Shown here: positions 2 through 49,101 of the stretch, piece after piece | Position numbering within the stretch: position 1 is the stretch's first letter | Layout of the letters: each line of letters opens with the position of its first letter | Virus record (IMG/VR): IMGVR_UViG_3300005512_000001 | Location: 192,001 to 256,000 of that record | DNA: 64,000 nucleotides | Strand: one strand, 5' to 3' | Source: a virus | Taxonomy: Duplodnaviria; Caudoviricetes | The notes under the pieces: model-generated | What the model saw: the letters and a program-made list of their open reading frames with translations, nothing else | Database searches by the model: none | Told to the model about the DNA's origin: nothing | Position numbers and translations under genes: made by a program

Positions 2-307
2 ACTGCTAAATTTATTAAAAAGATTCGCAACGATTTTCAAAATGCAAAAGCTATAATTGCATTTGCAGATTTGTCGCACAACCATGTTGGTACCATATAC
101 AAGGCCGGAAATTGGGAGTTCAATGGTGTGGTGCCCCCCAGTTATTGGTATCTTGATGTTGATGGTTTTGTTTGGCACAAGAAAACTGTTTATAATAAAG
201 CTGTTAAATCAGATATGAAAGAATCTGAATTTGCATGCCAGAATGAGTTATCAAAAATCTATGGCAAGGAAAAATATCGATATATTTATTGGTTGCGACT
301 GTATTAG
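2..307 (+). CDS. C-terminal fragment (5' truncated by window) of a Mom-like GNAT protein, paralog of the endonuclease-GNAT fusions
   Basis: Frame open from nt 2: AIIAFADLSHNHVGTIYKAGNW..PSYWY..WHKKT.Y..A matches the C-termini of 1626-3089, 31965-33593 and 47623-49101. Confidence 0.75.
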   Translation, partial: TAKFIKKIRNDFQNAKAIIAFADLSHNHVGTIYKAGNWEFNGVVPPSYWYLDVDGFVWHKKTVYNKAVKSDMKESEFACQNELSKIYGKEKYRYIYWLRLY

Positions 308-345
308 GATTTCTTCAAATATATTTACAGAATTGGAGAACAGAT

Positions 346-912
346 ATGCCTAATAGAGTACCATTTACAGCCTATTTCAAGATTGTTCCGGAGCGTGGCA
401 GCGGAAAGAGATTCGAGATTCAGCGGAGTCGTGAACGATTTGCCCGTTTAGTCTGGAATGATTTAAATACGAACCTGGAAAATGCTATCCCCGGTGCTGG
501 AACTGGACTAGGAACGACTGTTGGTGCCAATTTCACAGTCCCTGGCGGCTCAATACATTGGGGCTTGGCTGCTAGTGATAGTTCGTTGTCAAGCAATATG
601 GGTGCTGTTGCGGTAAAACCTCAGTTCGGCGAGTCACCAGATACTCTGACGGTGGTGGGATTCTATGAAGGCTCTAATGTTATTCCGTATAGTGAAAAAC
701 AATTAATAAGCGGCGGTAGAGTATGGAATGGTCCGGCTACTGGCACACCCGCCTACACTATTAGCACTGAGCCAAATGCAGCTAATAGAAGTGCTGCTAG
801 AGCATTAAAGACGGCATTAGAAGGTGCCATAGAGTCAGTTGAAGTCGAGATGATTAAACTGGAAATAAACGGCGTTAAATATGGTCGTGGTGGATTACAT
901 TTTCCGTTATAA
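346..912 (+). CDS. hypothetical protein, probably late/virion
   Basis: ATG 346 with GGAG RBS and CAAATATA motif at 316. Confidence 0.6.
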   Translation: MPNRVPFTAYFKIVPERGSGKRFEIQRSRERFARLVWNDLNTNLENAIPGAGTGLGTTVGANFTVPGGSIHWGLAASDSSLSSNMGAVAVKPQFGESPDTLTVVGFYEGSNVIPYSEKQLISGGRVWNGPATGTPAYTISTEPNAANRSAARALKTALEGAIESVEVEMIKLEINGVKYGRGGLHFPL

Positions 913-918
913 TCTAAC

Positions 919-1356
919 ATGAAACTACCGATGCTATATGAGACAATGGGCAGCGCAGACCCTGTGGTTTTTCGGGCTGGGTCGTCAGAAGGTATTCTTC
1001 TTCATTTTGGAACTATGGCCGCAGCACAAAAAGCATCTATAGGACGTGATATTCATCGTGGAATTTTGAAATTAAATAGCCCGGCAACTATGGTGGATTC
1101 TGGACGGTCTCATAATATTAATCCAGTTGCATTAGCACAAGATATTGTTGCAGGAAACAATCCAGGCATAACAGCGGACCTTATTCCTGTTATTAAGAAG
1201 ATTTTAGATAATAAGGGCATTAAGGCTGCTTTTGAAGGAATCCGAGATGCACTGAAAAATCATGAGTATGATGGTGTTGCGTATGTTAATACTAATGAGG
1301 ACCCTGGGTCAATTTCATATATCGCATTAGATGGTAATCAATTCATGAAAGGATAA
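919..1356 (+). CDS. ADP-ribosyltransferase-like (ART-PolyVal type) protein with N-terminal MKLxxLYE peptide
   Basis: LHFGT..AA and L..HEYDGVAYVN..EDPGSISYIAL..NQ pattern typical of ART-PolyVal domains. Confidence 0.5.
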   Translation: MKLPMLYETMGSADPVVFRAGSSEGILLHFGTMAAAQKASIGRDIHRGILKLNSPATMVDSGRSHNINPVALAQDIVAGNNPGITADLIPVIKKILDNKGIKAAFEGIRDALKNHEYDGVAYVNTNEDPGSISYIALDGNQFMKG

Positions 1357-1357
1357 G

Positions 1358-1579
1358 ATGATGGCGTTACCAGCATTTGGTTTTGGAAGAGGTTTTGGCT
1401 TTAAGAGAGGTTTAGGTTTGGGTAGAGGCTTCGGTGGCGGTAGAGGCCAAGGCGTGAAAGATGGCACTGGCGGTGGTGTGGGGCGAGGTACTGGCAGACG
1501 TGCACAGTCTCTTGCTAAGAAGCAAGAGCGGGCAGCACGCAGAGCAACATGCCCACGCCGGAATACACCTGAGAAATAA
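1358..1579 (+). CDS. small Gly/Arg-rich basic protein
   Basis: GRGFG repeats; AGGA RBS; directly follows previous stop. Confidence 0.5.
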   Translation: MMALPAFGFGRGFGFKRGLGLGRGFGGGRGQGVKDGTGGGVGRGTGRRAQSLAKKQERAARRATCPRRNTPEK

Positions 1580-1625
1580 GAGCATTGCAAGACGGCAATA
1601 TATGTTGACGCATACCCTGTGATGT

Positions 1626-3089
1626 TTAAAGATGTTTAATGAACCTTAGGACTTCTAGGCCCTTTATTTTATGCAGACCGTTTGTATTTGCATAATCTTG
1701 TTCTTTCATTCTCAGCCGCTTAGCTTGATCCCATACTGATTTTTTGTAATATCTTGTACCATTAGAATCAATATACCAGTAAGACGGTTTTGTCCTCCCG
1801 TCTTCTTGCCACCCAGCTGCTTTATAAACGGTGCCGCTGTGTCCAGCCCCTATGTCTGAAAATGCTATTAATGTTTTGATATGCTTTGGAATAAATTTCA
1901 TAGATTTCGCTATAAACCACGATGCGAAATTCTTTTTATGATATTCAGGGTGGATGCATAACCGTTGCAACTCTAATATTTCTTTGTGTTCTAAATTCAA
2001 TCTAGCGGCCGTCTGTAATCTTGTGATGCCTGTATAATTTATTGCCGCTACTAATTTGTTGTCCAGAAATGCACCAATACCCAACCCCGCTCTACCTTTA
2101 GATAAGTAATGATATAGATTAAAGAAATCATTTATCACGCTTTTACGGATGATTTTAACTTCAACATGTTTGAGGTCAAATTGTTTTGATATATCCTCTT
2201 GATGTAGGACATTCTTTAAGATATGTCTAATACTATTTAAGCCATAAAACTGGTGTTCGTAAATATAATATAATTCCCATTTATCAGACAAATATTTGTC
2301 GAAATATGTCTTCTTTTGTTTGTCTCTAGTTATTCTAGATGGGCGTGAATGCCAATATTCTCCTTGGCATTCGATTAAAATATTGCGATCTTTATAGGAA
2401 AAACCGACATCAAATGACCATGGTCCTAGGCTTATTGGTTGTGCATCGATTCCCATGCTTTGCAGGGAATTAATAATTATGTTATCTAATATGGATATAG
2501 GTGACAAGTTAGATATAGCTGTAGCTTGTTTTTGTCTATATTGTTTTGACTTCCACATCCTCTTTGAATTGGCACTTACTTTTTGTTTGAATTCATCTGA
2601 ACTGGTTGCTAGGTTTATTCCTTGAGTTGTTTTAATAAAGTATTCTGAATCTTTCCACAACTTCACTGCCAGTTCTGATTGCAATTTTTTACGTGCTGGT
2701 GTCCAACTTTTCTTTAATGATTCAGATATCTTCTTCTTTTTTACGTCGGTTGTGGATTTTTTTATGCCAGCAATGATACTATCACGATTCTTTTCCCAAT
2801 TCTTTTTAGCTGATTCTGATAATTTTTGCTTTCTGTTGCTTTGTATCCTTTTCATTATTTCTGAATGTTTTGTCCTATTGGCTTTATTCGACCAGTGGTT
2901 TTTAGAACGTTGCGATATATGGTCGGATTTTAGTAACATTCCTTTACTTATGCTTCTGGTTTTAATGCCAAATTTCTTTACATAATATCGGATTGTAGCT
3001 GGAGACACTGAGCATCGCTTTGCTATGTCTCTGATACTCATTATTGAATATGCGGTTTGTAACTCATCTTTATTTTTGTGATTTATCAT
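1626..3089 (-). CDS. free-standing endonuclease: HTH + NUMOD3-like repeats + Vsr/DUF559-type nuclease + Mom-like GNAT domain
   Basis: (S)KxxW repeats; WSFD..LIECQGEYWHS..DxxK; YHYL, ELQRLCIHP..KNFASWFI, AFSD..HSGTVYKAAGW. Confidence 0.8.
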   Translation of the reverse strand: MINHKNKDELQTAYSIMSIRDIAKRCSVSPATIRYYVKKFGIKTRSISKGMLLKSDHISQRSKNHWSNKANRTKHSEIMKRIQSNRKQKLSESAKKNWEKNRDSIIAGIKKSTTDVKKKKISESLKKSWTPARKKLQSELAVKLWKDSEYFIKTTQGINLATSSDEFKQKVSANSKRMWKSKQYRQKQATAISNLSPISILDNIIINSLQSMGIDAQPISLGPWSFDVGFSYKDRNILIECQGEYWHSRPSRITRDKQKKTYFDKYLSDKWELYYIYEHQFYGLNSIRHILKNVLHQEDISKQFDLKHVEVKIIRKSVINDFFNLYHYLSKGRAGLGIGAFLDNKLVAAINYTGITRLQTAARLNLEHKEILELQRLCIHPEYHKKNFASWFIAKSMKFIPKHIKTLIAFSDIGAGHSGTVYKAAGWQEDGRTKPSYWYIDSNGTRYYKKSVWDQAKRLRMKEQDYANTNGLHKIKGLEVLRFIKHL

Positions 3090-3188
3090 TTAGTTTCAAT
3101 TTCCTTCATTTTTATATACTATGTTTGATTATGACGATTGCTCATGGGCATAATTGATTATTTGGCAAATATAATATGAGGTGCAACT

Positions 3189-3905
3189 ATGGCGATAGTA
3201 GGTCCGTCAGATTTACCATACATTTTGCAAGTTGATAGCGACCCAATGAAGAAATACGTATTATCTAAATTGGGTCACCCGGTGGTTGAGGTAGAAATCA
3301 CAGAAGACCAGTGGGAAACGGTCCTACGTACTACTGGCAATTTCATAGCTCATTACTTTTCAAAAGAGCAGATGTTTGCTGTTTTCTACACCACGCCTCT
3401 AGAGAACACATATGATTTACCGAATAATGCATATTGGATTCAAGAGGTGGCATGGGATCCAGTAACGACAATGATTGACCAAATATTCGGTGCGGAGAGC
3501 TTTTTATTCTGTTTTGGTCCTGGCACCAAAATTCTGCGGTCAGATGGTGAGATGATTCTTATTGATGAATGGCAAGAGGATTATAAGGCCAAAACACCAT
3601 TTGGCGACAAGAAGATTAAAATAGAAAAACATGATAAAGACCAGCAGTTGCTAGAAATTGAACATGAATATGGGAAAATTGTAGTCACGCCAAACCATCC
3701 ACTAAAGACGAGTAGTTTAGACGATATGATGGATGGATGGGTGCCTGCTGATGAATGTGTTGTTGGCTCCGATATAATGACGAGCGACGGACCATCTAAA
3801 GTTGTTAGTGTTAAAGAATTGAATGGCCCTACCAACTCTATTATTGTGCCTGGGGCACATTGTTTTTGGGCAAGTGTAGATGGACAACCTATATTGGTGA
3901 GTTAG
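3189..3905 (+). CDS. gp13: neck protein gp13-like, N-terminal part fused to a Hint/mini-intein that stops prematurely
   Basis: YVLSKLGHPVVEVEITEDQ is the gp13-family N-terminus; GAGG RBS; followed by gp14/gp15/gp18. Confidence 0.75.
   Translation: MAIVGPSDLPYILQVDSDPMKKYVLSKLGHPVVEVEITEDQWETVLRTTGNFIAHYFSKEQMFAVFYTTPLENTYDLPNNAYWIQEVAWDPVTTMIDQIFGAESFLFCFGPGTKILRSDGEMILIDEWQEDYKAKTPFGDKKIKIEKHDKDQQLLEIEHEYGKIVVTPNHPLKTSSLDDMMDGWVPADECVVGSDIMTSDGPSKVVSVKELNGPTNSIIVPGAHCFWASVDGQPILVS
3510..3902 (+). mobile_element. mini-intein/Hint domain (131 aa) lacking the terminal Asn
   Basis: Block A CFGPGTKI, block B VTPNHP, W..A, block F/G AHCFWAS..ILVS, then TAG. Confidence 0.8.
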
Positions 3906-4008
3906 ATGAATAATTTTTCGATATATTATGATGGAAGTATAACCGCTGGTGGCGTATTTGGCGATGATTCTGATTATCATACTTATATGGGCAATCAAAT
4001 ATAAATAT

Positions 4009-4995
4009 GTGAGCAATAAAATAGATATACAAGTAGATGAGTTAAAAGAATATTTCAAAAATCATACTTTAAAACAATGTGCAATTAAATTTAATTGCTC
4101 TAAAGTAACTATAAAACGCAAATTGCAGTTTGTTGGTGTCGACACTTCAATTCACAATCATAGTCAATTGGCTTTAGATGCACATCGTAAATCTTTAAAA
4201 GACACTTCTAAATTAACTAAGGAATTTTTATATCAAGAATATGTTGTTCAGAATAAGGATGCTAAGACAATAGCGGAAGAAACTGGATTCCATTTTAATA
4301 CTATTAGGAATCGAACGCGCGAATTTGGGTTTAAAAAAGACCCTAAAAATGCTTCAATTTCAATGCAGTTGCGATATATGAAAAAGACAGGGTATCTTCA
4401 TCCTGGGCATAATCCGATAAATATAGCCAAGATAAACAAAAGACGGTCAAGATTTGAATATCATCCAGTTAAATCAGAAAAGTTAGTATTGTTCAAGTCA
4501 TTGCATGAGCTATGTTATGCATTATTGCTTGATAACGACCCAGATGTTGAGTCATGGGATTATGAACTAATTAAAATCCCATATATGGATGTAATAAAGA
4601 GACGCATGAGAATGTATTATGTTGATTTTTCAATTCAAGCTAAAAGCGGCGACCGATGGGTTGAAGTTAAACCAGCCAATAAAATGGTTCCACATATGAA
4701 GCGGCTATACGCCTCATATGCAGCAAAAAAAGCTGGCATAAAGTTTAGAGGATTGACCAATGATGAACGTAAGTTAGGATATGATTTGTTTATTGGTGGG
4801 TATAATTATGACAGAATTGGTTTTAGAAATGTAAAATCATTAAAATTGGGGTCATGCTATACTTTGTGGCTCAAAGATATTAATGAATTAAAAGAGGTAG
4901 AACATGACCACTATAAATACACAGACCAACTTGGCCCATTTCACCGATGCAAGTTCAAAGCCAAGGCTAAAAATAAATCTGTCGCCTCTCACTAG
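4009..4995 (+). CDS. HTH + TnsA/gp4-like PD-(D/E)xK endonuclease inserted in the neck gene
   Basis: FKSLHE..ALLLDNDPDV..WDYE..IPY..YYVDF..VEVKP; two HTH segments; probable GTG start 4009 just after CAAATATA at 3996. Confidence 0.75.
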   Translation: MSNKIDIQVDELKEYFKNHTLKQCAIKFNCSKVTIKRKLQFVGVDTSIHNHSQLALDAHRKSLKDTSKLTKEFLYQEYVVQNKDAKTIAEETGFHFNTIRNRTREFGFKKDPKNASISMQLRYMKKTGYLHPGHNPINIAKINKRRSRFEYHPVKSEKLVLFKSLHELCYALLLDNDPDVESWDYELIKIPYMDVIKRRMRMYYVDFSIQAKSGDRWVEVKPANKMVPHMKRLYASYAAKKAGIKFRGLTNDERKLGYDLFIGGYNYDRIGFRNVKSLKLGSCYTLWLKDINELKEVEHDHYKYTDQLGPFHRCKFKAKAKNKSVASH

Positions 4996-5659
4996 TGTCA
5001 ATGCGTTTACAGATATTGATGAAGGCACAATTTATCTATCCCAATATCGTTATTGCAACGGTGACTTTCTAGATGTAATTGCTGATGAGATGGCCCATTT
5101 TATTTCTGGCGCAGACCATGATGAAGAATGGAAACAGACTTGCTTGCAGTCGTACGGAAAAATTCCGCCGCACAATTCTGAATTTGATAAGATAAGACGC
5201 AGGCTTGGAATACCGAGCAATATTGCGGGGAACATCGGAAATATTACTGGCATACAGCAAATTCTTACTGATTACCATCTGTTGCAGTCATATAGAAGGT
5301 TCAGTCAACGGTTATTGGGCAATGAGGGCCATTGGGAAGTTTTGGGCGATAATAAAATAAGATTGTATCCAACGCCGAAAGGTTCATTCCCTGTTACTGT
5401 TTTGTACATTCCACCTATTTCCACATGGCGTACCCCTGCCAACAAGCTACTGGCAATGGATATGCTATTGGCTGAAAGCATGATTATGTTAGGGAGCGCT
5501 AGAGGTAAGTTTAGTGGTATACCTAGCCCAGATGGTGGGTCATTGAGCTTAGATGGCGGTGACCTCAAGCAGAAAGGGCAAGAGTTGCGTGATAAAGTCA
5601 TGCAGGATGCTATCCTGCTCTCAGATGACCCATATGCTTCTGCAATTTACAGGTACTAA
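4904..5659 (+). CDS. gp13: neck protein gp13-like C-terminal part (from ~5231) preceded in frame by a degenerate SprT-like segment; start uncertain
   Basis: LGSARGKFSGIPSPDGGSLSLDGGDLKQKG is the gp13 C-terminal signature; upstream DEMAH..HDEEWK resembles SprT HExxH..H. Confidence 0.7.
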   Translation: MTTINTQTNLAHFTDASSKPRLKINLSPLTSVNAFTDIDEGTIYLSQYRYCNGDFLDVIADEMAHFISGADHDEEWKQTCLQSYGKIPPHNSEFDKIRRRLGIPSNIAGNIGNITGIQQILTDYHLLQSYRRFSQRLLGNEGHWEVLGDNKIRLYPTPKGSFPVTVLYIPPISTWRTPANKLLAMDMLLAESMIMLGSARGKFSGIPSPDGGSLSLDGGDLKQKGQELRDKVMQDAILLSDDPYASAIYRY

Positions 5660-5660
5660 T

Positions 5661-6065
5661 ATGGCTACAATTAATCGCAGATTAAATGTGATACGTGGTG
5701 ATAGGGTTCTTGTCCCAGGATGCGAGCCGACGAGTACATTGACTTCAACCAGGATGATGGCCGAGATGAACCGATTAGGATTGTGTCAATGTGCTATTGT
5801 TGATTTGGCTGATATTTTAGAGGCTATACCAGGTGCATACACTGAGTATATCCCAAATTCAGGCCATATGGGCAGTAGCAAGATATTAATTCTACCTAGT
5901 GAAGACCAAACTTGTCCATGCACCACTCATGAAGATTGGTATGAAACAATAAGAGGACTGTGCTCTGAATCAGCCACTGAGGAAGAGATTAATGAGATAC
6001 TTGGGTGTGATGCTTTTTCTATTGATCCATGTGTTACTAGGCCGCAATGGAGAGGCCAAGAATGA
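5661..6065 (+). CDS. hypothetical Cys-rich protein in neck cluster
   Basis: ATG directly after the gp13-C stop; overlaps next start. Confidence 0.55.
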   Translation: MATINRRLNVIRGDRVLVPGCEPTSTLTSTRMMAEMNRLGLCQCAIVDLADILEAIPGAYTEYIPNSGHMGSSKILILPSEDQTCPCTTHEDWYETIRGLCSESATEEEINEILGCDAFSIDPCVTRPQWRGQE

Positions 6066-6628
6066 TACACAGATTTTCAAAGTCGGCAGAGACAATCACC
6101 AGAATCGCACCAGGGCAGCAACGCATTGGGCATAGAGATGATATGTCTCAGTCTAATCCGCTTATACAATTACATGACAGCGAAAGTCTGGACCATGGTC
6201 TCGCAGGCAGTATAGCAGAAGAGATTATAAACATAAGCGGCGGCCAGGTTGTAGTATATGTTAGAACAGATAGTGAGGCATTTGATGATGTTTATGAAGA
6301 AGACCCCGACCCAACATATAAAGTTGGTAAAAGATTGAAGGCTTATTTCGTGCCGCAGCCTATCTCTGCACAACTTACACCGTGGGGGGTTGATGTTGAG
6401 AACCAAGCTACTATTGTCTTTTCGAAAGAACAAGTACGCGGTGAGTTTGGCGATAGGATGATACGGATTGGTGATGTGGTTGAGTTGCCATATAATGCGT
6501 CTGCATTGCGGCCTGATCGGTATAGAGTTTTAAATGCTTTTGACTCTGGAAACTTTAGATACAATTGGCTATATTGGAGTTGTACTGTCGAAAACCTGGC
6601 GGACGACATTACTATAGAACCAGAATGA
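6062..6628 (+). CDS. gp14: neck/head-closure protein gp14-like
   Basis: E.I.ISG..V.VY..DDVYEED, WGVD, IGDVVELP; position after gp13. Confidence 0.65.
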   Translation: MIHRFSKSAETITRIAPGQQRIGHRDDMSQSNPLIQLHDSESLDHGLAGSIAEEIINISGGQVVVYVRTDSEAFDDVYEEDPDPTYKVGKRLKAYFVPQPISAQLTPWGVDVENQATIVFSKEQVRGEFGDRMIRIGDVVELPYNASALRPDRYRVLNAFDSGNFRYNWLYWSCTVENLADDITIEPE

Positions 6629-6918: not shown

Positions 6919-6919
6919 T

Positions 6920-30489: not shown

Positions 30490-32008
30490 GATTATTGACG
30501 ACAAATGGATATATATTGAACAAGCCTCGGTGGCTGAAGAAGGTATCTTAGATGATGAATTTAGTGTTAAGCATCCAAGAGCACAATATATAGATGCTGG
30601 TGTTGGGTTTTTTGATGGCGTATATCATAAATATAACAAATTTCATCATAGGTTGGCACGCCCGTTCTTACATGAATTGGAGGCTGCTTGTAATAAGCAT
30701 GGGCTGCCATTGATGATTGTGGATAATAGGCCATCGCCAAAATACAAACCAAAGGCATCAGATGTTACACCAGATTTGTTATCTGGGATTACATTAGACC
30801 AGCACCAGATAGATGGAATCAAATCAGTGTGTACTGAGGAAGTTGGGATTATTTCATGTCCTACTGGCGGTGGCAAATCGGAGATGATGGCTGGTATAGC
30901 CAAAATCATGAATTGCCCGACCATTATTTTATGTGATATGACAGTGGTGGTTGACCAGCTTAAAAATCGTCTTGAGTTAAGGGGCGTTACAGAAGAAGTT
31001 GGTATGTTTTATGCTGGTAGGAGGCCGAATGGGCAACAGATTATAGTTGGTTCGTTCCAATCATTGACTATACCATCAGTACCAAAGAAAACCAAAAAAG
31101 ATACGCCAGAGACGTATGCCAAGAAATTGAAAGCATTTAAAACTCGTCGCAGAAATGCCAGGAAGCTGCGAGAGATAGTTAGCAAATGCGATTTGTTATT
31201 AGTAGATGAATGTGACGTTGCTGGACGGCATTGGCGGAATTTATTCTGGCATTGGTTTAAAGGGCGTAGAAGATATGGCTTTTCGGGGACTCCATATGAC
31301 CCCAGCAAGCCTGTAAATAATATGCTTCTTAGGGAACATCTTGGGAATATAATTTTTGAAGTTGATCGCAGAGAATTAGAAAAAATTGGCAGAATCATCC
31401 CTGTGTCATATACAGCACTTGCAGTTGGCGACGATGCGAATATCAAAGACAAATCTGCTTATGATATTGCTATGAAAGAACATCTCATTGAAAGCCCATC
31501 ATTCCATAAGCTCGTTAAGGTAGTGACAGAAAAAAGCTTGATCGACCCATCATATGGTGCGTTAATTTTAGTTGAGAGCAAGCCGCTAGGTTATGCGTTA
31601 GAGAGTATAATAAGCGACTCTAAATTTATATGTGGCGACCATCGTATGACTGAACGCAAAAAAACAATACAAAGTTTTGAAAATCGAGAAACTAGAGTAT
31701 TGATAGGCGGTAAGATTGTCAAGCGTGGATTGGATTTGAAAGGTGGCTGTGAAATCCTAGTAATAGCAACTGGCGGCAAGCTGCAATCGGATTTTAATCA
31801 AAAAGTCGGGCGAGCTGTACGCAAAAATAAGCGTGGATGTGCACAGATATATGATTTCTTTTTTCTATGTAACCACTATTTATATGGGCATTCAAGAAAA
31901 AGATTAAAAACCATAGTTAGTATGGGATATGATGCTAAAGTAATATTTAAAAAAGGTGTTATTGATGCACAGAAATTCATTAAATCAAGATTTAGAAGAC
32001 CAAAATAA
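30479..32008 (+). CDS. SF2 DNA helicase, UvsW-like
   Basis: PTGGGKS, VDECD, FSGTP, RGLD, QKVGRAVR. Confidence 0.88.
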   Translation: MLARIIDDKWIYIEQASVAEEGILDDEFSVKHPRAQYIDAGVGFFDGVYHKYNKFHHRLARPFLHELEAACNKHGLPLMIVDNRPSPKYKPKASDVTPDLLSGITLDQHQIDGIKSVCTEEVGIISCPTGGGKSEMMAGIAKIMNCPTIILCDMTVVVDQLKNRLELRGVTEEVGMFYAGRRPNGQQIIVGSFQSLTIPSVPKKTKKDTPETYAKKLKAFKTRRRNARKLREIVSKCDLLLVDECDVAGRHWRNLFWHWFKGRRRYGFSGTPYDPSKPVNNMLLREHLGNIIFEVDRRELEKIGRIIPVSYTALAVGDDANIKDKSAYDIAMKEHLIESPSFHKLVKVVTEKSLIDPSYGALILVESKPLGYALESIISDSKFICGDHRMTERKKTIQSFENRETRVLIGGKIVKRGLDLKGGCEILVIATGGKLQSDFNQKVGRAVRKNKRGCAQIYDFFFLCNHYLYGHSRKRLKTIVSMGYDAKVIFKKGVIDAQKFIKSRFRRPK

Positions 32009-33593
32009 CTTTTATGCTTTTATTGACTGGGATAAAACATTCTCTATATATAAAATTACAAGAGACACCTCTAAATTATCAAACAAAAGAGTAATTTATA
32101 AATGCCCGAATTGTGGCAAGATTTATCATATTGTCTATAAAGAAATAAAACGGAAAAAGTCGCGATATTGCAAGAGCTGCTTCGGCAGTAAAATTTCCGA
32201 ATCGATGAAGCGGTTGGGCAATGACCCAGTACACAAAGCTAAGCTTTCATTACAATCAAAACAGCTATGGGAAGATGAGGAATATCGTCGCAGGCATAAA
32301 TTATCATGTAATACAGAGCAAGCTCGGAAGAGACGTTCTGCTGCAAATGTGGCGATGTGGTCTGACCCTGATTTTAGGAATGCTTTAATAGAGATTTTTC
32401 GCGGTGAGAAATTCCGCAAACAAGTTTCAGACAGAATGAAGGTTCAATGGAGCGATAAAGAATATAGGAAGAATATGGAAGAGATGTTGCATGATGAAGA
32501 ATTCATCAATATGGCCTCTAAGAGGTCATCTAATTTATGGAGAGACGCAGCATATAGGAAGAAAATACTCAACTCGAAATCATCAGAGGAATACAAACAA
32601 GAAATTGGTCATAAAATTTCAGATTCATTAAACCGTCCTGAAGTTAAGGAGAAAATGGCTGTTGCTAGGGCTAATTGCCCAAAAGTTTCTAATATTCAAG
32701 GTATTCTTTATTCGATTTTAGATGATTTAGGTGTGCAATATTATAGAGAATATAATGATAGGCTTGACGACCCACAATGTAAAATCGGACCATGGACTTT
32801 TGATTGTGTAGTCCCGAGAAGCAATAAACCAGACCTATTAATAGAATGCCAAGGCGATTATTGGCACTCTTTAAAAAAAAGTATTGTTAATGATAAATCT
32901 AAGGCTTCGTATATTGCGAATAACTTTCAAGGCCAATACGAACTTAAATACTTATGGGAACATGAATTTGCTAATTTCCATAGAATCAATGAATTAATAA
33001 AATATTGGTTAGGGATTACAGAATTAGAAACTATTAATTTTAATTTTAGTGATTTAGAAATAAGACGATGTTCTGCCAAAGATTACAAATTATTACTTTC
33101 GAAATATCATTATTTACCGAACGCCGGGCGTGGTGGAATTGCGTATGGTGCTTATCTTGTCAATGAATTGATCGCAGTCTGTGTCTTCTCACCATTAAGC
33201 AGGCAGAATATTAGAATAAAATCATGTGCTGTTAATCAAGTCAGGGATTTGTCTCGGTTATGTATCCATCCGAGGTATCAGAAAAAGAATTTTGCATCAT
33301 GGTTTGTTTCACGATGCATAAAGCAGCTAGATACAAAGTTTAAATGTGTTATTTCTTATTGTGATACAACTTTTAATCATGATGGCGCAGTTTACAAAGC
33401 AGCAAATTTTAAACTAGATGGCGAAGTAAGACCAGATTATTGGTATGCTTCAAAAGATGGGTGGGTGATGCATAAGAAAACTCTATATAATCATGCTGTC
33501 AAGATGAGGATGAAGGAGGGAGAATATGCCGAGGCTAATGGATATAAGAAGATATGGGGAGGAAAGAAGTTGAAGTTCATCTATGAGAGGTGA
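31965..33593 (+). CDS. Zn ribbon + NUMOD3-like repeats + Vsr/DUF559-type nuclease + Mom-like GNAT fusion
   Basis: CPNC/CKSC; WTFD..LIECQGDYWHS; YHYL.NAGRGG; DLSRLCIHP; SYCDTTFNHDGAVYKAANF. Confidence 0.8.
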   Translation: MHRNSLNQDLEDQNNFYAFIDWDKTFSIYKITRDTSKLSNKRVIYKCPNCGKIYHIVYKEIKRKKSRYCKSCFGSKISESMKRLGNDPVHKAKLSLQSKQLWEDEEYRRRHKLSCNTEQARKRRSAANVAMWSDPDFRNALIEIFRGEKFRKQVSDRMKVQWSDKEYRKNMEEMLHDEEFINMASKRSSNLWRDAAYRKKILNSKSSEEYKQEIGHKISDSLNRPEVKEKMAVARANCPKVSNIQGILYSILDDLGVQYYREYNDRLDDPQCKIGPWTFDCVVPRSNKPDLLIECQGDYWHSLKKSIVNDKSKASYIANNFQGQYELKYLWEHEFANFHRINELIKYWLGITELETINFNFSDLEIRRCSAKDYKLLLSKYHYLPNAGRGGIAYGAYLVNELIAVCVFSPLSRQNIRIKSCAVNQVRDLSRLCIHPRYQKKNFASWFVSRCIKQLDTKFKCVISYCDTTFNHDGAVYKAANFKLDGEVRPDYWYASKDGWVMHKKTLYNHAVKMRMKEGEYAEANGYKKIWGGKKLKFIYER

Positions 33594-33695
33594 ATTTAAC
33601 GTTACATTTTTGCCCGTCAATATATTCATATAGAATTGTAATTATAAATATAAATGACGCGCTTTATCGTCGCTTCATTAGTATATAAATTTACT

Positions 33696-35891
33696 ATGAG
33701 TAAAATTCCTGAAGTTATTATATTTCCTACCCCTACGTCGCCAGACCGAAAATTATATTTCGACAATAATAAGGTCGAAGATTTAATGTTGCGATATCGG
33801 TGGACTGGTTGCACCGATGCGGCTCTGCGCGACAATATCATGAAGAATACTGAGGAATTGATACGCCAGATTATAAGGGCACACAATCTACATCGCATCT
33901 ATCCAGGCCAGGAAGAATCGGCATTCATGGACCTATATCAAACGGCTTGGGTTCAAATAGAGAGGACATTATATAAATATAAAGCGAGGGTTCATTGTGC
34001 TAATTGCTATAATCCAATTCGCCCTGCAGAATCATGTATACACAACCCAGAACCAACCGAATACAATATCATAACACCTGAGGATGTTCTAAAAAAGCGG
34101 TTGAAATGCCCATCATGCAAAAAGATTCCAAGTAGAGTAATATATCGTGGGTGCTCTAAGATATTCAATATGTGGTGTGTGCGGCCTGATACATTGCTTC
34201 TTACGACAAATGGTATTAATAATATTAAGAATGTTTCTACTAGAAACAAGTATGATGATAAACAAGAAATTTGGACAATAGGGGAAGGTGGTAAGCCTAG
34301 TAAAGTAGTAGCTGGTTTGACGAAGACATCAAGACGTGTTTTAGACATAAAAACTGAACTCGGATTTGAAATAGGGTGTACACCTGAGCATTCTATTTTA
34401 TGCGATGGTGCTTGGAAGCAAGCAAATAAGATATCTATTGGCGATTTGGTAACTATACAGTATAACCAACAATTTTTTGTTGATGATAATAATTTATCAG
34501 ATATAGAGCTAACAGAAAATCGGGCTGGATGTAGTGGGGTCAAATCAATAGATTGGCAATTGCCGAATGTAATGAACTCAGAACTGGCATATATCATAGG
34601 ATTATATATTGCTGAAGGTTCGTGCTCACATGGACAATTAGCAATATATAATATAAATAGTGATGTTATAGATGCTTTAGTCAATAATAACCTTGGATTA
34701 AAATTTATACACTATCCAGATAGGCAATGTATAGTGTGTAACAATAAAAGATTTGTGGAATTTATAAAATTATTACAAATAGGAGATAGTGCTTGTGAGA
34801 AAATAATTCCACATAGAATGCTCATAGCGTCTAAAGACAACATCATATCGATGTTGTCTGGGTTGTTTGATGGTAATGGGCATTCATCGAAGCATAATGG
34901 GTGTGTTGGGTACACAAGTACATCTATTATGTTAATTAGACAATTGCGAATGGTTCTACTTAATTTGGGAATTTTAACAAAAATACAGATTGATAACCGC
35001 AGCATATCGCGATTCATAAAAAATAACAGACAGTATGATTCTAATAGACGTAGAACATATCAATTGATATGTTCTACGTCTGCGTCAATGAAATTTTATA
35101 GTTCGATAGGGTTTAAGGTCAGCTATAAACAAGCGAAGTCGCACCAATTAACGCCTAGCAGAGAATTCATATATGGTTTGAATTCGAGTTTTAGAAGATT
35201 ATATAAGAAATATGGCTGTGGTAAATTGGGGTATAACAAAATAAGAACAGCGATACGCGAAGATAGGATTAAATGTGAAGCAAATAAAGCCAGCGAATTA
35301 ATGGAAAATTGGGACAATCATATTGATGATCCAGACATAAAATTGATTAAATCTAGGCTTAATCAATATAATAGTAATAGTGTAAAAACTATTTGGCTCC
35401 CAGTTATAAGCATTGATGAGTCAGAAAGCCCAGTATGTGAAATATCAGTTGATTCAGACGATCACTCTTATGTTGCTAATGGAATTATATCACATAATTC
35501 ACAGGTTGCACGGACAGTAATATTGGCATATATTAAAAAAGAAAGCCGCGACCATAAAAATTCTGATGCATATAAAGTCCATTTAGATAATAAAAGAGCA
35601 CCGAAAACAGATGAAGCATTTTTAAGATTCCTATCTGAGGCCAAAGAGATATGCAAATATAATAAGAACCATATGGATATTATTGATGCTTTGGAATTTA
35701 TCATGAAGACTGATGATAGGCCATATGAAGGCATTATAGGCAAGTTGGTAAAATTATCTGATCAATCTAGGGCACAAGTTACTAATTTTTTGAAAATGAT
35801 TAGATTAAGAGGCAGCGAATTTACAGATTCGCCCATGAATGACCAACACCAAAAATTGGGGTCTGTGGCGTCAGAGGATGAATCATGGTAA
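33696..35891 (+). CDS. late-transcription sigma factor gp55-like with Zn-ribbon insert and intein
   Basis: LYFDN; spliced junction SKIFNMW|SQVARTVILAYIKKE resembles gp55 region 2; CANC/CPSC insert. Confidence 0.6.
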   Translation: MSKIPEVIIFPTPTSPDRKLYFDNNKVEDLMLRYRWTGCTDAALRDNIMKNTEELIRQIIRAHNLHRIYPGQEESAFMDLYQTAWVQIERTLYKYKARVHCANCYNPIRPAESCIHNPEPTEYNIITPEDVLKKRLKCPSCKKIPSRVIYRGCSKIFNMWCVRPDTLLLTTNGINNIKNVSTRNKYDDKQEIWTIGEGGKPSKVVAGLTKTSRRVLDIKTELGFEIGCTPEHSILCDGAWKQANKISIGDLVTIQYNQQFFVDDNNLSDIELTENRAGCSGVKSIDWQLPNVMNSELAYIIGLYIAEGSCSHGQLAIYNINSDVIDALVNNNLGLKFIHYPDRQCIVCNNKRFVEFIKLLQIGDSACEKIIPHRMLIASKDNIISMLSGLFDGNGHSSKHNGCVGYTSTSIMLIRQLRMVLLNLGILTKIQIDNRSISRFIKNNRQYDSNRRRTYQLICSTSASMKFYSSIGFKVSYKQAKSHQLTPSREFIYGLNSSFRRLYKKYGCGKLGYNKIRTAIREDRIKCEANKASELMENWDNHIDDPDIKLIKSRLNQYNSNSVKTIWLPVISIDESESPVCEISVDSDDHSYVANGIISHNSQVARTVILAYIKKESRDHKNSDAYKVHLDNKRAPKTDEAFLRFLSEAKEICKYNKNHMDIIDALEFIMKTDDRPYEGIIGKLVKLSDQSRAQVTNFLKMIRLRGSEFTDSPMNDQHQKLGSVASEDESW
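34176..35498 (+). mobile_element. intein with LAGLIDADG endonuclease (441 aa)
   Basis: CVRPDT..CTPEH..IIGLYIAEG..LSGLFDGNG..YVANGIISHN|S. Confidence 0.93.
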
Positions 35892-43900: not shown

Positions 43901-44012
43901 AGACGGATTAAAACGCAAGGATAGCGAAAACGTACTTATTGAGTCTATTATAGACAAAGAGGTACGTGATAAAGTAGTGATGGAATTTCGGGATGTGTTG
44001 GTAGAGAGATAG
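40953..44012 (+). CDS. gp20: portal protein with intein
   Basis: ALDLYADE, PYGR|SIME, LRLMEDAALIYRITRAPEKRIF, EDDFFLP, DIEYFKKK. Confidence 0.96.
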   Translation: MSWHLFDRIRSLVRTAGIYQQERLFQDQSSIDRIMAGGDLLDFSQQQALLDQTNLQINRLERYKDYDQMDETGEMSLALDLYADESSLVDPERKHTIIIKAQSKTVKEELENLFFNQLLIDNNVRPMVRYLCKYGDAPFEIVPTVDRDGVASIRFVNVYNFTRVETKHGDLVGFFYQDEVMEEPQFLHPWQTMHLRLTDYGNQYHPYGRCKDSNSPVWTPNGWKRLKDLKPGDDVFAWDGKKAVPTKVVKYVSNGIKKTIKVKTRHYSEVITPEHPVLVHKDGVQDYVLAKNLKVGDELVIPKLAFNDVATPIKRQYRRYKLNEKYRTIIESHSIGYKKCANLSGISRNITRGFLRRNTAVSKENADKIIKLYGLADDAKIGAGWGTSLDCSLPEFVDDEFARFFGFMIGDGWLSSTCVQFALGEDDKLNEYYINILARYSGESKINFRYDRNNKPIAVMANNTVLADTLFDMGLNAKAAHKQIPEWVFNSSKDIAINFVQGLLDSDGCAYLDREKYLRFHHVTASMNLITSLKILLHKIGVKCGHICTGHNHKFNSDELGALRHQLTYYQSELPFEGNALFERVISIEEGDEIEVGDIQVESEYHNFVADGIVIHNSIMEGGRKAFKQLRLMEDAALIYRITRAPEKRIFKIPIGNIAAKDVPEFMQSIARTFKQQRFYDPRTGKFNERFSPLIQEDDFFLPVRPDGTSPDITTLKGAENLDQIADIEYFKKKMIAPTKIPFKRVGVGEGSGEEQEKSLSSSDAQFAKAVQWVQREISIGLTKVAICHLAMAGYSIDDLKNFEISMSATSAIDELYRMETWQGRTAVMSDLKDLGWFPREWIVTRFTDLSPDEIDELSEIMSKQTELPTEEEGGGLGGLGGLGLPGGGEELPGLEGEGGLEGLEGAEAEGGAEAAAAEPPEADLAGLGEVGERLDKRNKNILIEIANQNKYELLREFISRVNKRVNSPSLSAYINLLNNNELDGLKRKDSENVLIESIIDKEVRDKVVMEFRDVLVER
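41580..42803 (+). mobile_element. intein with LAGLIDADG endonuclease (408 aa)
   Basis: CKDSNSPV..ITPEHP..FFGFMIGDG..VQGLLDSDG..HNFVADGIVIHN|S. Confidence 0.94.
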
Positions 44013-44079
44013 ATAGTATTTTTATGCTGTCTGTTCAAATATATTTATAAGTTTGGGTAACTAGTTATTGGAGCGTGTA

Positions 44080-46773: not shown

Positions 46774-46789
46774 ATAGCAAATCTCAAAT

Positions 46790-46823
46790 GAAACGGCGTA
46801 AGATTTTGGTCTTACGCCGTTTC
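46790..46823 (+). terminator. intrinsic terminator-like hairpin
   Basis: GAAACGGCGTAAGA / TCTTACGCCGTTTC. Confidence 0.75.
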
Positions 46824-46859
46824 TATATGCCAGCAAATATAAATTAACAGGAGTAAAAT

Positions 46860-47555
46860 ATGATTACTAGGCAGTATAGTACATTTAATAGAGGGTTGGT
46901 TGCACAAACTGGGGCTATTCCTACTGGTGCACAATTCTTACAAGAGACTTACCCGCTTGAGATAAAAGACATCAAACAGGTCGTCTCAGAAGCTAGTGGC
47001 GATGGCAAGCCAGCTTTGAGGATTACTGGAGTCTTCCAGAAGTCAGATGACTTGAATCAAAACGGCCGACAGTATCCGCATGATATCTTGTCTGAAGCTG
47101 TGGGGGCGATTCAGGATGATATTGGGCGTCGAGTTGTTATGGGTGAGTTTGACCACCCGCCGGATGCTAAGATTCACTTAGAACGAGTCAGCCATCTAAT
47201 CACTAAGGTATGGATGGAAGGGAAATATGTTTATGGTGAGGCGGAAGTAGTAGAAGGCACCACACATGGCCGCAATTTATCTGCCTTATTGAGAGCTGGT
47301 GTAAAAATTGGTATTTCGTCACGCGGTGTTGGTGACATGGAATGTGTAAATGAGGGAATGGACGATGAACGGTATATTGTCCAGCCTGGCTATAGATTCG
47401 TGACATGGGATGTGGTTGGTGAGCCTTCTGTGCAAGAGGCAACTATGTCCGTAATGGAAAGCAAGAATAGAGGCATCATTACAAGAGCTAAGTTACGTCA
47501 GAGTGACCCAGAACTTGCTTTGCTAGACGAATTGCGGCGTACATTAGAACTTTGA
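46860..47555 (+). CDS. gp21: prohead core protease
   Basis: NQNGRQYP, GEFDHP, VSHLIT, GISSRGVG, TWDVVGEPS. Confidence 0.95.
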   Translation: MITRQYSTFNRGLVAQTGAIPTGAQFLQETYPLEIKDIKQVVSEASGDGKPALRITGVFQKSDDLNQNGRQYPHDILSEAVGAIQDDIGRRVVMGEFDHPPDAKIHLERVSHLITKVWMEGKYVYGEAEVVEGTTHGRNLSALLRAGVKIGISSRGVGDMECVNEGMDDERYIVQPGYRFVTWDVVGEPSVQEATMSVMESKNRGIITRAKLRQSDPELALLDELRRTLEL

Positions 47556-47588
47556 AAAATAATGCCCCATTAATGGGGCATTATTTTT
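47555..47588. terminator. perfect 34-bp palindrome, bidirectional terminator-like
   Basis: AAAAATAATGCCCCATT AATGGGGCATTATTTTT. Confidence 0.8.
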
Positions 47589-47622
47589 ATGTATTAATTA
47601 ACCAGCAATGTACGGAGATATT

Positions 47623-49101
47623 ATGAAGCATAATATAAACGCCGAAGAAGTAATAGCTCGATATAAATCTGGGATGTCAATCTATCAAGTAGCTAAAAAA
47701 CTTGGTATAGGCAAGAGCACTGCTCATAGAATCCTGAAAGAGAATAACATACCAACAAATAAAAAACAAAAGAAGAAGCGTCAGAATGCACAGCAAATAT
47801 GTGATTATTATGTTGCTGGAAACTCTGCAATTAAGACTGCTGTTGAATTTGGTGTAAGCCCTAGTGAGATTTATAGAATTTTGAAATGCAATGATATAAA
47901 ATCACGCTCTTTAGCCGAAGCCGAGAAAGTATCACAACCTTCTAGATATATTTCTAAATCAAGGTCGCAGTCAGTTGATGAAGAATGGTTGCGCATACGA
48001 TTCGTAGACCAAAAAATGACATGTGGTGAAATCTCCGACAAATATGGTATTAATATTTCGACGTTGAATTACTATAAACGAAAATTTGGCATAAAACGCC
48101 CACCCGAGCAGAAAGCCATAATCCAATCTAGAATAAGTAAGAGATTATGGAAAGATGATAATTATAAAAACCAAATGTCACTTGCTATAGCCTCTACACA
48201 AAAGGTCTCAGTAATTCAAGAAGCTCTGTATTCTATGCTTGATGATTTACAAGTTGCTTATTATAGGGAATATAATGATAAAGAAGATGATGTGCAATGC
48301 CGGATAGGCCCATATAGCTTCGACTGTGTGGTTCCTAGAGATAACAGACCAACTTTATTAATAGAAGTGCAAGGCGAGTATTGGCATTCATTAAAAAGGA
48401 CTATAGAAAAAGATGTTCAGAAGGCTTCGTATATCTCGAATAATTTCCAAGGCCAATATGAGTTGAAATATATTTGGGAACATGAATTTTCTAATAAGAA
48501 CCATGTTTTAACATCGATAAAGCATTGGTTGGGTTTAGAACAGCCTATATTGATAGATTTTGACTTTGCAGATTTGCAGATTAGGAAATCACCAAGGTCC
48601 GATTATAAATTGTTGTTGTCTAAATACCACTATCTTGCGAATGCCGGGCGTGGTGGCATATCATATGGCGCTTATTTGGGCGATAAACTAATCGCTGTAT
48701 GTATTTTCTCACCTCCGATAAGGCAGAACGTTGACGATTCGCAAAATACACGTGAGTTATCGAGGTTTTGTATTAACCCAAGTTATCAGAAGAAGAATTT
48801 TGCATCATGGTTTATCAGTAGATGTATTAAAAAACTACCGAAGCAATATTCCAAAGTTACTGCTTATAGTGATACGACATTTGAACACTATGGGACTATA
48901 TATTTAGCTGCTAACTTCAAGCAGGTCAGTACAATTAAGCCTGATTATTGGTATAGCTCGCCAAAGGAATGGATAATGCATAAGAGAACATTATATGGTA
49001 GGGCTAAAGCGATGGCTATGACGGAAAAAGAATATGCTACTAAACATTCTTATAAGAAAGTCTACGGTAAGGAAAAATTAAAATTTTTATATGAGCGGTA
49101 A
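47623..49101 (+). CDS. 3xHTH + Vsr/DUF559-type nuclease + Mom-like GNAT fusion
   Basis: YSFD..LIEVQGEYWHS; YHYLANAGRGG; ELSRFCINP; AYSDTTFEHYGTIYLAANF. Confidence 0.8.
   Translation: MKHNINAEEVIARYKSGMSIYQVAKKLGIGKSTAHRILKENNIPTNKKQKKKRQNAQQICDYYVAGNSAIKTAVEFGVSPSEIYRILKCNDIKSRSLAEAEKVSQPSRYISKSRSQSVDEEWLRIRFVDQKMTCGEISDKYGINISTLNYYKRKFGIKRPPEQKAIIQSRISKRLWKDDNYKNQMSLAIASTQKVSVIQEALYSMLDDLQVAYYREYNDKEDDVQCRIGPYSFDCVVPRDNRPTLLIEVQGEYWHSLKRTIEKDVQKASYISNNFQGQYELKYIWEHEFSNKNHVLTSIKHWLGLEQPILIDFDFADLQIRKSPRSDYKLLLSKYHYLANAGRGGISYGAYLGDKLIAVCIFSPPIRQNVDDSQNTRELSRFCINPSYQKKNFASWFISRCIKKLPKQYSKVTAYSDTTFEHYGTIYLAANFKQVSTIKPDYWYSSPKEWIMHKRTLYGRAKAMAMTEKEYATKHSYKKVYGKEKLKFLYER

What the first reader, a model, noticed from the sequence alone, without database searches (positions are those of the whole stretch)
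2..49101. Four dispersed members of an endonuclease + Mom-like acetyltransferase fusion family: possible self-protecting mobile nuclease
Seen: 1626-3089(-), 31965-33593 and 47623-49101 share variable DNA-binding N-termini (HTH, Zn ribbon, KxxW repeats), a FD..IE.QG.YWHS..D..K nuclease and a C-terminal HYL..(E/D)LxR..ASWF..D..H.G..Y.A domain. The fragment at 2-307 shows only the C-terminal domain. The three complete copies sit beside conserved genes (neck, helicase/sigma, protease). 31965 and 47623 share near-identical blocks (DYKLLLSKYHYL.NAGRGG), suggesting recent spread. Known: Mu Mom is a GNAT-fold adenine-modifying enzyme; free-standing homing endonucleases in T4-like phages lie next to their targets; related nuclease-GNAT fusions probably exist in databases as Hef-like proteins. 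Inference: one polypeptide both marks and cuts, a single-gene restriction-modification-like homing element that spares its own genome and excludes co-infecting relatives; alternatively the GNAT fold reads modified DNA.
Basis: partly seen in the sequence, partly recalled or inferred. Interest (0 to 1): 0.78.

Follow-up and report, generated by a model that had tools for sequence, protein, structure and literature searches.

The report
Hef homing endonucleases carrying Mom domains
The four genes are copies of a widespread and already described selfish phage gene, the Hef-type homing endonuclease, which joins a DNA cutter to a relative of phage Mu's DNA-modifying enzyme Mom; they are real and look mobile, but nobody has tested what the Mom half does.

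Summary
The window lies in a 113-kb fragment of an uncultured jumbo phage. That fragment holds six paralogs, not four. Each has a variable DNA-binding head, a Vsr-like (EDxHD) nuclease and a Mom-family GNAT domain. The 2-307 "fragment" is the tail of a full 514-aa copy cut by the window edge.

Both folds are supported. The best structural matches are the Mu Mom crystal structure 8bv8 and the I-Bth0305I homing nuclease 3r3p. Both active sites are nearly invariant across 135 diverse cluster representatives.

The genes behave as free-standing homing elements:
- Five insertion sites are empty in syntenic relatives.
- A complete 395-kb relative has no Mom gene.
- Orthologs with the same head sit beside the same host gene in other phages.
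- The genes' GC content is below the genome's.

"Recent spread" is not supported: the paralogs are 29-58% identical. "Acetyltransferase" is probably wrong, because Mu Mom uses Gly-tRNAGly.

The fusion and the cut-and-protect idea were published for jumbo phages (Iyer et al. 2021), and Hef is a known homing endonuclease. This scan has already reported the same thing on other DNA (49 notes in at least 38 genomes). These are new members of a known kind. The role of the Mom domain remains untested.

The parts
2..307 (+). C-terminal 101 aa (Mom domain, last half) of a complete 514-aa Hef-Mom paralog (P0122) whose first 1.24 kb lies outside the window
   Evidence: Pfam Mom E 1.4e-14. The full ORF, with nuclease and Mom motifs, is seen in the genome record.
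1626..3089 (-). Hef-Mom paralog P0121 (487 aa), stop codon included
2514..3089 (-). P0121 N-terminal DNA-binding region: MerR-like HTH plus K..W repeats (aa 1-192)
   Evidence: Sub-threshold HTH matches (MerR, HTH_24) at aa 17-48. Repeats visible in the translation.
2175..2513 (-). P0121 Vsr-like EDxHD nuclease domain (aa 193-305)
   Evidence: REase_MTES_1575 match at aa 205-282. Aligned to the family profile, which matches 3r3p.
1629..2174 (-). P0121 Mom-family GNAT domain (aa 306-487)
   Evidence: Pfam Mom at aa 310-483, E 2.5e-20. Key residues kept.
31965..33593 (+). Hef-Mom paralog P0009 (542 aa from the ATG at 31965); overlaps the helicase stop (32008) by 44 nt
31965..32669 (+). P0009 N-terminal Zn ribbon plus four W-D-x-x-Y-R repeats (aa 1-235)
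   Evidence: Weak Zn-ribbon matches and a repeat-driven 'GerD' match. Translation.
32670..33047 (+). P0009 nuclease domain (aa 236-361)
33048..33590 (+). P0009 Mom domain (aa 362-542)
   Evidence: Pfam Mom E 9.7e-20; alignment A3
47623..49101 (+). Hef-Mom paralog P0001 (492 aa; an alternative ATG lies at 47608)
47623..48189 (+). P0001 N-terminal region with three HTH modules (aa 1-189)
   Evidence: HTH_23, HTH_7 and HTH_28 above their cut-offs
48190..48564 (+). P0001 nuclease domain (aa 190-314); D234, E248, H255, D264 and K267 are the putative catalytic set
   Evidence: AF2 model pLDDT 93.5. Best PDB match 3r3p I-Bth0305I, TM 0.81 by target. Residue conservation.
48565..49098 (+). P0001 Mom domain (aa 315-492); H336, Y337, R381, S395, D417 and Y427 correspond to Mu Mom H58, Y59, R111, S124, D149 and Y159
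   Evidence: AF2 model pLDDT 89. Best PDB match 8bv8 Mu Mom. hhalign and HMM alignments.

Best explanation
These are free-standing Hef-type homing endonuclease genes: selfish elements lodged in intergenic spacers next to conserved phage genes. SHOWN here: each protein has a lineage-specific DNA-binding head, a Vsr-like EDxHD nuclease and a Mom-family GNAT domain. Both catalytic residue sets are conserved. The genes are absent from the same sites in syntenic relatives. Orthologs with the same head sit by the same host gene in other phages. INFERRED: the head docks the protein on a site in or near the neighbouring conserved gene of a co-infecting relative that lacks the element. The nuclease breaks that DNA, and recombinational repair from the carrier genome copies the gene in. 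The Mom domain is as constrained as the nuclease and is kept in every paralog, so it most likely acts in cis with each nuclease. My preferred reading (about 40-45% on its own) is that it is an active aminoacyl-tRNA-dependent adenine-N6 modifier like Mu Mom. It would mark the element's own target site or genome so the carrier is spared, as in a single-chain restriction-modification enzyme. This is the mechanism Iyer et al. 2021 predicted.
For: Architecture and folds: Pfam and PHROG matches. The family profile matches 8bv8 Mom at E 2.9e-8 and 3r3p I-Bth0305I at E 6.9e-6. Foldseek top hits are 8bv8 (E 4.6e-9) and 3r3p (TM 0.81 by target).
Active sites: in 135 representatives of 50%-identity clusters, nuclease D234 is kept in 134, H255 in 131, D264 in 133 and K267 in 133. 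The Mom equivalents are H58 132, Y59 130, R111 133, S124 126 (plus 6 Thr), D149 135 and Y159 132. All are kept in the six paralogs, with S to T in one. The Mom domain is as conserved as the nuclease.
Mobility: helicase and sigma-like genes are adjacent with no Hef in L005, L006 and L007. The protease site is empty in seven loci. Three further sites are empty in L021. There are no Mom matches in relatives of 82, 75 and 50 kb, nor in a complete 395-kb relative. P0001-type orthologs abut the prohead protease gene in L014, L042 and L043, and a P0079-type ortholog abuts a Lyase_1 gene, as P0079 does here. Hef genes have 34-35% GC against 40.8% for the genome.
Literature: U5 Hef cleaves nrdB and is treated as a homing endonuclease (PMC2988022). 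Hef-type enzymes are placed in the Vsr-like EDxHD family (PMC3239194). Mom-REase fusions in jumbo phages were predicted to cut and protect (PMC7824862).
Against: No cleavage, homing or DNA modification was measured for any of these proteins; everything functional is inferred. More distant Hef-likes (Campylobacter NCTC12673, LIMEstone1) have the same two-domain layout but lack the Y59 and S124 equivalents. Hef mobility therefore does not generally need Mom catalysis. Mu Mom's essential R151 is Thr here, although most stand-alone phage Moms also lack it. Mu Mom's dimer residue W48 and its basic N-terminal tail have no counterpart. Comparing protease alleles of carriers and non-carriers gave no clue to a target site.
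Confidence: 0.55

Rival explanations
1. The genes are homing endonucleases, but the Mom domain does not modify DNA. It serves as a structural module for DNA clamping, base flipping or dimerisation of two nicking domains. The carrier is immune through sequence differences at the target, as in T4 seg and mob elements.
For: Campylobacter and LIMEstone Hef-likes keep the domain while losing the Y59 and S124 equivalents. Mu Mom is a tight dimer with a DNA-binding HTH-like insertion (PMC13219725). The I-Bth0305I nuclease needs dimerisation. R151 is not kept.
Against: In this subfamily every family-wide Mom active-site residue is nearly invariant across 135 diverse representatives. A scaffold role would not require that. 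The Mu dimer residue W48 is not conserved here.
Confidence: 0.22
2. The genes are primarily weapons, not homing elements. They form a set of single-chain restriction-modification-like enzymes that degrade host or superinfecting-phage DNA while momylation protects the phage. Their patchy distribution reflects gain and loss of accessory defence genes.
For: This is the prediction of Iyer et al. 2021. There are six copies with different DNA-binding heads. Relatives lack any Mom gene and so would be unprotected.
Against: Orthologs with the same head recur beside the same conserved gene in unrelated contigs. The insertions fill 8-300-nt spacers between conserved genes. The nuclease is closest to a proven homing enzyme, and Hef of U5 is a homing endonuclease. 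The two roles are not mutually exclusive.
Confidence: 0.12
3. Mark-then-cut: the Mom domain flips and aminoacylates an adenine in the target of the recipient genome. The Vsr-like domain, whose relatives nick at a damaged or mismatched base, then cuts next to that lesion.
For: Both active sites are conserved and always linked in cis. Vsr relatives are lesion-directed nickases. Mom is modelled to flip its adenine out.
Against: There is no direct support. I-Bth0305I cuts ordinary paired DNA. Hef-likes with degenerate Mom sites persist as multi-copy elements.
Confidence: 0.05

Closest known systems
Hef of T-even phage U5 and annotated 'Hef-like' free-standing homing endonucleases (Campylobacter Fletcherviruses, LIMEstone1 F-LimIII/VII/VIII/X, Acj9, Vibrio phage YC)
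   Same: Free-standing genes of about 450-600 aa lying between conserved genes, often several per genome. They have a variable Zn-ribbon or HTH head and a Vsr-like nuclease, followed by about 190 aa that align to the same Mom-like region. They fall in PHROG 559/3339.
   Different: Those relatives are only 24-29% identical to these genes. Their Mom-like region falls at or under the Pfam cut-off and lacks the Y59 and S124 equivalents. The copies here keep the full Mom residue set. I could not read the U5 paper or obtain its sequence here.
I-Bth0305I, prototype of the EDxHD (Vsr-like) homing endonucleases (PDB 3r3p)
   Same: Best sequence-profile and structural match of the nuclease domain. The Asp/His/Asp core aligns, and both have an N-terminal modular DNA-binding region.
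   Different: I-Bth0305I is intron-encoded, 266 aa long and has no GNAT domain.
Phage Mu Mom (PDB 8bv8), a Gly-tRNAGly-dependent adenine-N6 modifier
   Same: Pfam family, GNAT fold with the beta6-beta7 helical insertion, and the residues H58, Y59, R111, S124, D149 and Y159.
   Different: About 15-20% identical. R151 is Thr, with His at position 154, as in most non-Mu stand-alone Moms. There is no W48, no basic N-terminal tail and no C-terminal tail. The domain is fused behind a nuclease rather than standing alone under Com control.
Mom-REase fusions of 'group 2' jumbo phages described by Iyer, Anantharaman, Krishnan, Burroughs and Aravind 2021
   Same: The same architecture in the same kind of genome, with the same proposed cut-and-protect logic.
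   Different: That paper treats them as restriction-like systems against host or superinfecting DNA. The passage retrieved by a keyword search of that paper makes no link to Hef homing and reports no site-by-site presence or absence.
Single-chain Type IIG/IIL restriction-modification enzymes such as MmeI (recalled from general knowledge, not tested here)
   Same: A functional analogy only: one polypeptide carries target recognition, a nuclease and a protective base modifier.
   Different: Different folds, and SAM methylation rather than a GNAT with aminoacyl-tRNA. They are cellular defence genes, not homing elements.

Membership tests
EDxHD / Vsr-like homing endonucleases | Vsr-like nuclease fold | tested here: met
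   AF2 model pLDDT 93.5. Foldseek rank 1 is 3r3p (TM by target 0.81, rmsd 2.9), followed by NGO0050 and Vsr 1vsr/1cw0. The profile matches 3r3p at E 6.9e-6.
EDxHD / Vsr-like homing endonucleases | Catalytic Asp, x(Asn/His), His, Asp motif | tested here: met
   D234, Q250, H255 and D264 align to I-Bth0305I D196, N208, H213 and D222. They are kept in 131-134 of 135 representatives, with Q/N/H at the x position. The first Glu of the motif could not be placed with confidence; E216 is conserved where aligned.
EDxHD / Vsr-like homing endonucleases | Site-specific cleavage of the element-less allele and gene conversion | not testable with these tools
   Needs enzyme assays and mixed infections.
Hef-like free-standing homing endonuclease genes | Separate ORF in an intergenic spacer beside a conserved gene, absent at that site in relatives | tested here: met
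   Five of the six sites are empty in syntenic contigs. The genes are not inside an intron or intein.
Hef-like free-standing homing endonuclease genes | Homology to annotated Hef proteins | tested here: met
   tblastn hits Hef60 and Hef-like genes of Campylobacter phages and F-LimVII of Vibrio phage YC. Hef60 is annotated as similar to U5 Hef at its C-terminus. The family HMM aligns over nuclease plus Mom region at E about 1e-20.
Hef-like free-standing homing endonuclease genes | Association of a given specificity type with a given host gene | tested here: met
   P0001-type genes lie beside the prohead protease in L014, L042 and L043. P0079-type genes lie beside an adenylosuccinate-lyase-like gene in L044. 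Only two of the six types were tested.
Mom family (Pfam PF25680) | Profile match above the curated cut-off | tested here: met
   59.8-73.4 bits against a cut-off of 27.1 for the four window copies. All six copies in the record are above the cut-off.
Mom family (Pfam PF25680) | GNAT fold with the helical insertion between the last strands | tested here: met
   Foldseek top hit is 8bv8. Predicted helices at model residues 265-274 and 279-285 lie between strands. This region aligns to Mom 175-209.
Mom family (Pfam PF25680) | Residues needed for Mu Mom activity: H58, Y59, R111, S124, D149, Y159 | tested here: met
   The residue list comes from PMC13219725.
Mom family (Pfam PF25680) | R151 (essential in Mu Mom) | tested here: not met
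   Thr in 120 of 135 representatives. R151 is confined to the Mu-like clade among the eight stand-alone phage Moms aligned; the others carry His at position 154, as here. It is therefore not a family-defining feature.
Mom family (Pfam PF25680) | Dimer interface residue W48 | tested here: not met
   The aligned position is Lys, Tyr or another residue.
Mom family (Pfam PF25680) | Aminoacyl-tRNA-dependent modification of adenine N6 in dsDNA | not testable with these tools
   Needs LC-MS or SMRT on DNA exposed to the protein.
Acetyl-CoA-dependent GNAT acetyltransferases | Q/R-x-x-G-x-G/A pyrophosphate-binding loop | tested here: not met
   The loop reads K-K-N-F-A-S-W here and R-N-S-E-S-R-A in Mu Mom. 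Pfam Acetyltransf_1 matches are below its cut-off.

The most novel reading that the evidence does not exclude
The Mom domain is not an antidote but part of the cutting mechanism. Guided by the DNA-binding head, it flips and aminoacylates one adenine in the recipient's target. The Vsr-like, lesion-type nuclease then cuts beside that adduct. This would be a tRNA-dependent 'mark-then-cut' homing endonuclease.
Probability: 0.05. Interest if true: 0.8.

Novelty: new member of a known kind. Interest (0 to 1): 0.27.

Why it matters
As a discovery it matters little. The gene family, its homing behaviour, the Mom fusion and the cut-and-protect hypothesis are all in print, and this scan has met the same thing many times.

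What remains open is experimental: nobody has shown what a Mom domain does inside a homing endonuclease. The 2026 demonstration that Mu Mom transfers glycine from Gly-tRNAGly to adenine supplies a direct assay. This subfamily keeps every family-wide Mom active-site residue, so it is a better test case than the degenerate Campylobacter or LIMEstone Hefs. If the domain gives site-directed self-immunity, it would explain how such elements can target invariant sequences. It would also offer a DNA-binding-domain-guided adenine modifier.

Tried and rejected
1. Recent duplication or gene conversion among the copies is rejected: DNA identity is at most 67% and protein identity 29-58%.
2. 'R151 lost, so Mom is dead' is rejected. 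Most stand-alone phage Moms lack R151 and carry the same D-x4-H-x-G-x2-Y motif.
3. I looked for carrier-specific substitutions in the protease C-terminus as a hint of target-site immunity. No pattern emerged, and there were too few and too divergent sequences.
4. I searched for close stand-alone Mom relatives of the fused domain. It returned mostly short-contig fragments of the fusion and was uninformative.
5. Megablast of 20 kb of the window against GenBank phages found no match.
7. Pfam Adenylsucc_synt has no match in the 113-kb record, so I could not link a Z-genome to these nucleases.
8. There are no tRNA genes in the window.
9. The U5 Hef paper (Sandegren 2005) and Iyer 2009 are not held. 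Statements about U5 Hef therefore rest on secondary citations.
10. Literature searches for a tested function of the Mom domain in Hef found none.


Full report
WHAT IS THERE. The window is the minus strand of positions 42635-106634 of a 113,025-bp IMG/VR viral contig. CheckV rates it about 31% complete, which suggests a phage of roughly 350 kb.

All four match Pfam Mom (PF25680) well above its cut-off and PHROG 1384 'Mom-like DNA modification protein'. Three of the four also match PHROG 559 over much of their length and all four match PHROG 3339; both are annotated 'HNH/homing endonuclease'. The N-termini differ:
- P0001 has three HTH modules.
- P0121 has a MerR-like HTH plus K..W repeats.
- P0009 has a Zn ribbon plus four W-D-x-x-Y-R repeats.

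A search of the whole record finds six Mom matches, all inside 487-542-aa ORFs of the same architecture. The 2-307 'fragment' is the tail of one of them, a 514-aa gene cut by the window edge.

FOLDS AND ACTIVE SITES. I aligned the nuclease-plus-Mom region of 66 family members (A2). A profile of A2 finds two things among PDB sequences: the Mu Mom crystal structure 8bv8 (E 2.9e-8) and the catalytic domain of the homing endonuclease I-Bth0305I, 3r3p (E 6.9e-6).

An AlphaFold2 model of P0001 residues 190-492 has mean pLDDT 89. Its best Foldseek match is 8bv8, ahead of generic GNAT acetyltransferases. A model of the nuclease domain alone has pLDDT 93.5. Its best match is 3r3p (TM 0.81 by target), followed by a DUF559-like protein and Vsr itself.

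D234, Q250, H255 and D264 of P0001 align to the I-Bth0305I active-site residues D196, N208, H213 and D222 described by Taylor et al. 2011 (PMC3239194).

For the Mom domain I used the residue list of Silva et al. 2026 (PMC13219725). H58, Y59, R111, S124, D149 and Y159 correspond to H336, Y337, R381, S395, D417 and Y427. Mu's essential R151 is Thr here. I then aligned eight stand-alone phage Moms: Mu, a Pseudomonas Mu-like phage, Melnitz, Polaribacter P12002L, Bacillus Thornton, ICP1, RaK2 and Listeria LP-026. R151 is confined to the Mu-like pair. Most of the others carry D-x4-H-x-G-x2-Y, as these fusions do. Loss of R151 is therefore not evidence of inactivation.

An exhaustive profile search of 1.84 billion cluster representatives gives 486 hits at E <= 1e-30. 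Nearly all of the best 150 align over both domains in one stretch behind N-termini of very different lengths. In 135 of those diverse representatives, both residue sets are nearly invariant. Examples are D234 134/135, H255 131, D264 133, Mom D149 135, R111 133, H58 132, and S124 126 plus 6 Thr. The Mom domain is as conserved as the nuclease: 63% against 59% mean identity over 123 homologs, and 42% against 42% among the six paralogs.

The canonical acetyl-CoA loop of GNATs is absent, as in Mu Mom. Mu Mom is now known to use Gly-tRNAGly rather than acetyl-CoA. 'Acetyltransferase' is therefore probably the wrong label.

MOBILITY. Syntenic viral contigs, with about 50-90% protein identity in flanking genes, show empty sites.
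- In L005, L006 and L007 the helicase gene is followed after 32-295 nt by the sigma-like gene, with no Hef gene. Those relatives also lack the LAGLIDADG intein that splits the sigma-like gene here.
- In L012, L013, L015 and L016 the prohead protease gene is followed directly by the small convergent Zn-ribbon gene. In L017, L019 and L020 it is followed by the next conserved gene.
- In L021 the three sites occupied here by P0079, P0122 and P0121 are all empty.
- Relatives of 82, 75 and 50 kb, and a complete 395-kb relative with terminal repeats, have no Mom match at all. One relative has a single copy at a different site.

Orthologs that share the N-terminal head recur beside the same host gene in other phages. 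P0001-type genes (60-63% identical, heads about 50%) abut the 3' end of the prohead protease gene in L014, L042 and L043. P0090 is an ortholog of P0079 and lies just upstream of a Lyase_1 gene. P0079 lies the same way, upstream of an adenylosuccinate-lyase-like gene.

The six genes have 34-35% GC against 40.8% for the contig. They are old and divergent, at 29-58% protein identity and at most 67% DNA identity. The 'near-identical blocks' are conserved motifs, not signs of recent spread.

WHAT IS KNOWN.
- Hef ('homing endonuclease-like function') of T-even phage U5 cleaves nrdB and is listed among T4-type free-standing homing endonucleases (PMC2988022; PMC3296691).
- Taylor et al. 2011 placed Hef-type enzymes in the Vsr-like EDxHD family.
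- Iyer et al. [quoted passage not shown] They predict that momylation protects the phage while the nuclease attacks other DNA (PMC7824862).
- tblastn finds annotated Hef and Hef-like genes in Campylobacter phages and Vibrio phage YC. One Campylobacter gene is annotated as similar to U5 Hef at its C-terminus.
- The family HMM aligns across nuclease plus Mom region in six Campylobacter NCTC12673 Hef ORFs (Pfam Mom gives weak matches in nine there) and two LIMEstone1 Hef-likes. There the Y59 and S124 equivalents are missing, and Pfam Mom scores fall at or below the cut-off.
- I found no paper that tests the Mom-like half.
- This scan has 49 earlier notes on the same architecture in at least 38 genomes. 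Their follow-ups reached the same verdict.

MECHANISM. Shown: the architecture, the folds, conservation of both active sites, presence/absence polymorphism, and recurrence of a given head type beside a given host gene. Inferred: site-specific cleavage of element-less relatives followed by recombinational copying.

For the Mom domain I favour cis-acting, probably aminoacyl-tRNA-dependent adenine modification that spares the carrier (about 40-45%). The argument is that every paralog keeps an intact site. A genome-wide protective Mom would need only one copy. The main rival is a structural role, meaning DNA clamping, base flipping or dimerisation (about 22%). It is supported by the degenerate Hef-likes. 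A purely restriction-like weapon (about 12%) and a mark-then-cut mechanism (about 5%) are not excluded.

VERDICT. These are new members of a known kind. Interest is low to moderate. It rests only on the untested function of the Mom domain, which the 2026 Mom biochemistry now makes directly assayable.

Noticed in passing
window 33654-35891 (+): The sigma-like gene just downstream of the Hef copy at 31965 carries a LAGLIDADG intein (Pfam LAGLIDADG_3 and Intein_splicing), inserted after the residues ...FNMW. Relatives L005-L007 have the uninterrupted 289-aa gene, so two selfish elements sit side by side here.
   Followed up: partly
window 3189-5656 (+): The neck-like gene about 100 nt from the Hef copy at 1626-3089 is broken after ...GAESFLF by a Hint-like segment. 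An HTH/TnsA-like nuclease ORF follows at 3949-4995. The relative L021 has an intact 255-aa gene that is 84% identical over the N-terminal part.
   Followed up: partly
window 49102-49476 (-): A 124-aa ORF lies tail-to-tail with the Hef copy. It resembles the Zn-ribbon plus first W-x-x-P-x-Y repeat of the Hef heads P0079 and P0009 (pairwise E 1e-5 and 8e-5). It is conserved at 40-68% identity beside the protease in relatives that lack the Hef. It could be a remnant of an older Hef or a domesticated DNA-binding module at the same hotspot.
   Followed up: partly
L014:5329-6885 (-), L042:5001-6476 (+) versus window 47623-49101 (+): P0001-type Hef genes occupy the same spot at the 3' end of the prohead protease gene in three phages. 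In the other two they are convergent with the protease, overlapping it by 14-17 nt; here the gene is co-directional. Simple homology-driven homing would keep the orientation, so at least one insertion or inversion was independent.
   Followed up: no
L004:4941-6371 (+) (outside the window, about 3.3 kb before its start): A phage-encoded adenylosuccinate-lyase-like gene (Pfam Lyase_1 plus a sub-threshold ADSL_C match) lies directly after Hef copy P0079. A Lyase_1 gene also follows the Hef ortholog in another contig (L044).
   Followed up: partly
window 919-1579 (+): Two small ORFs lie between the conserved gene at 289-912 and the Hef copy: 919-1356, and the Gly/Arg-rich 1358-1579. Neither has a family match, and both are missing from the relative L021 together with the Hef gene. 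They may have arrived with it.
   Followed up: no
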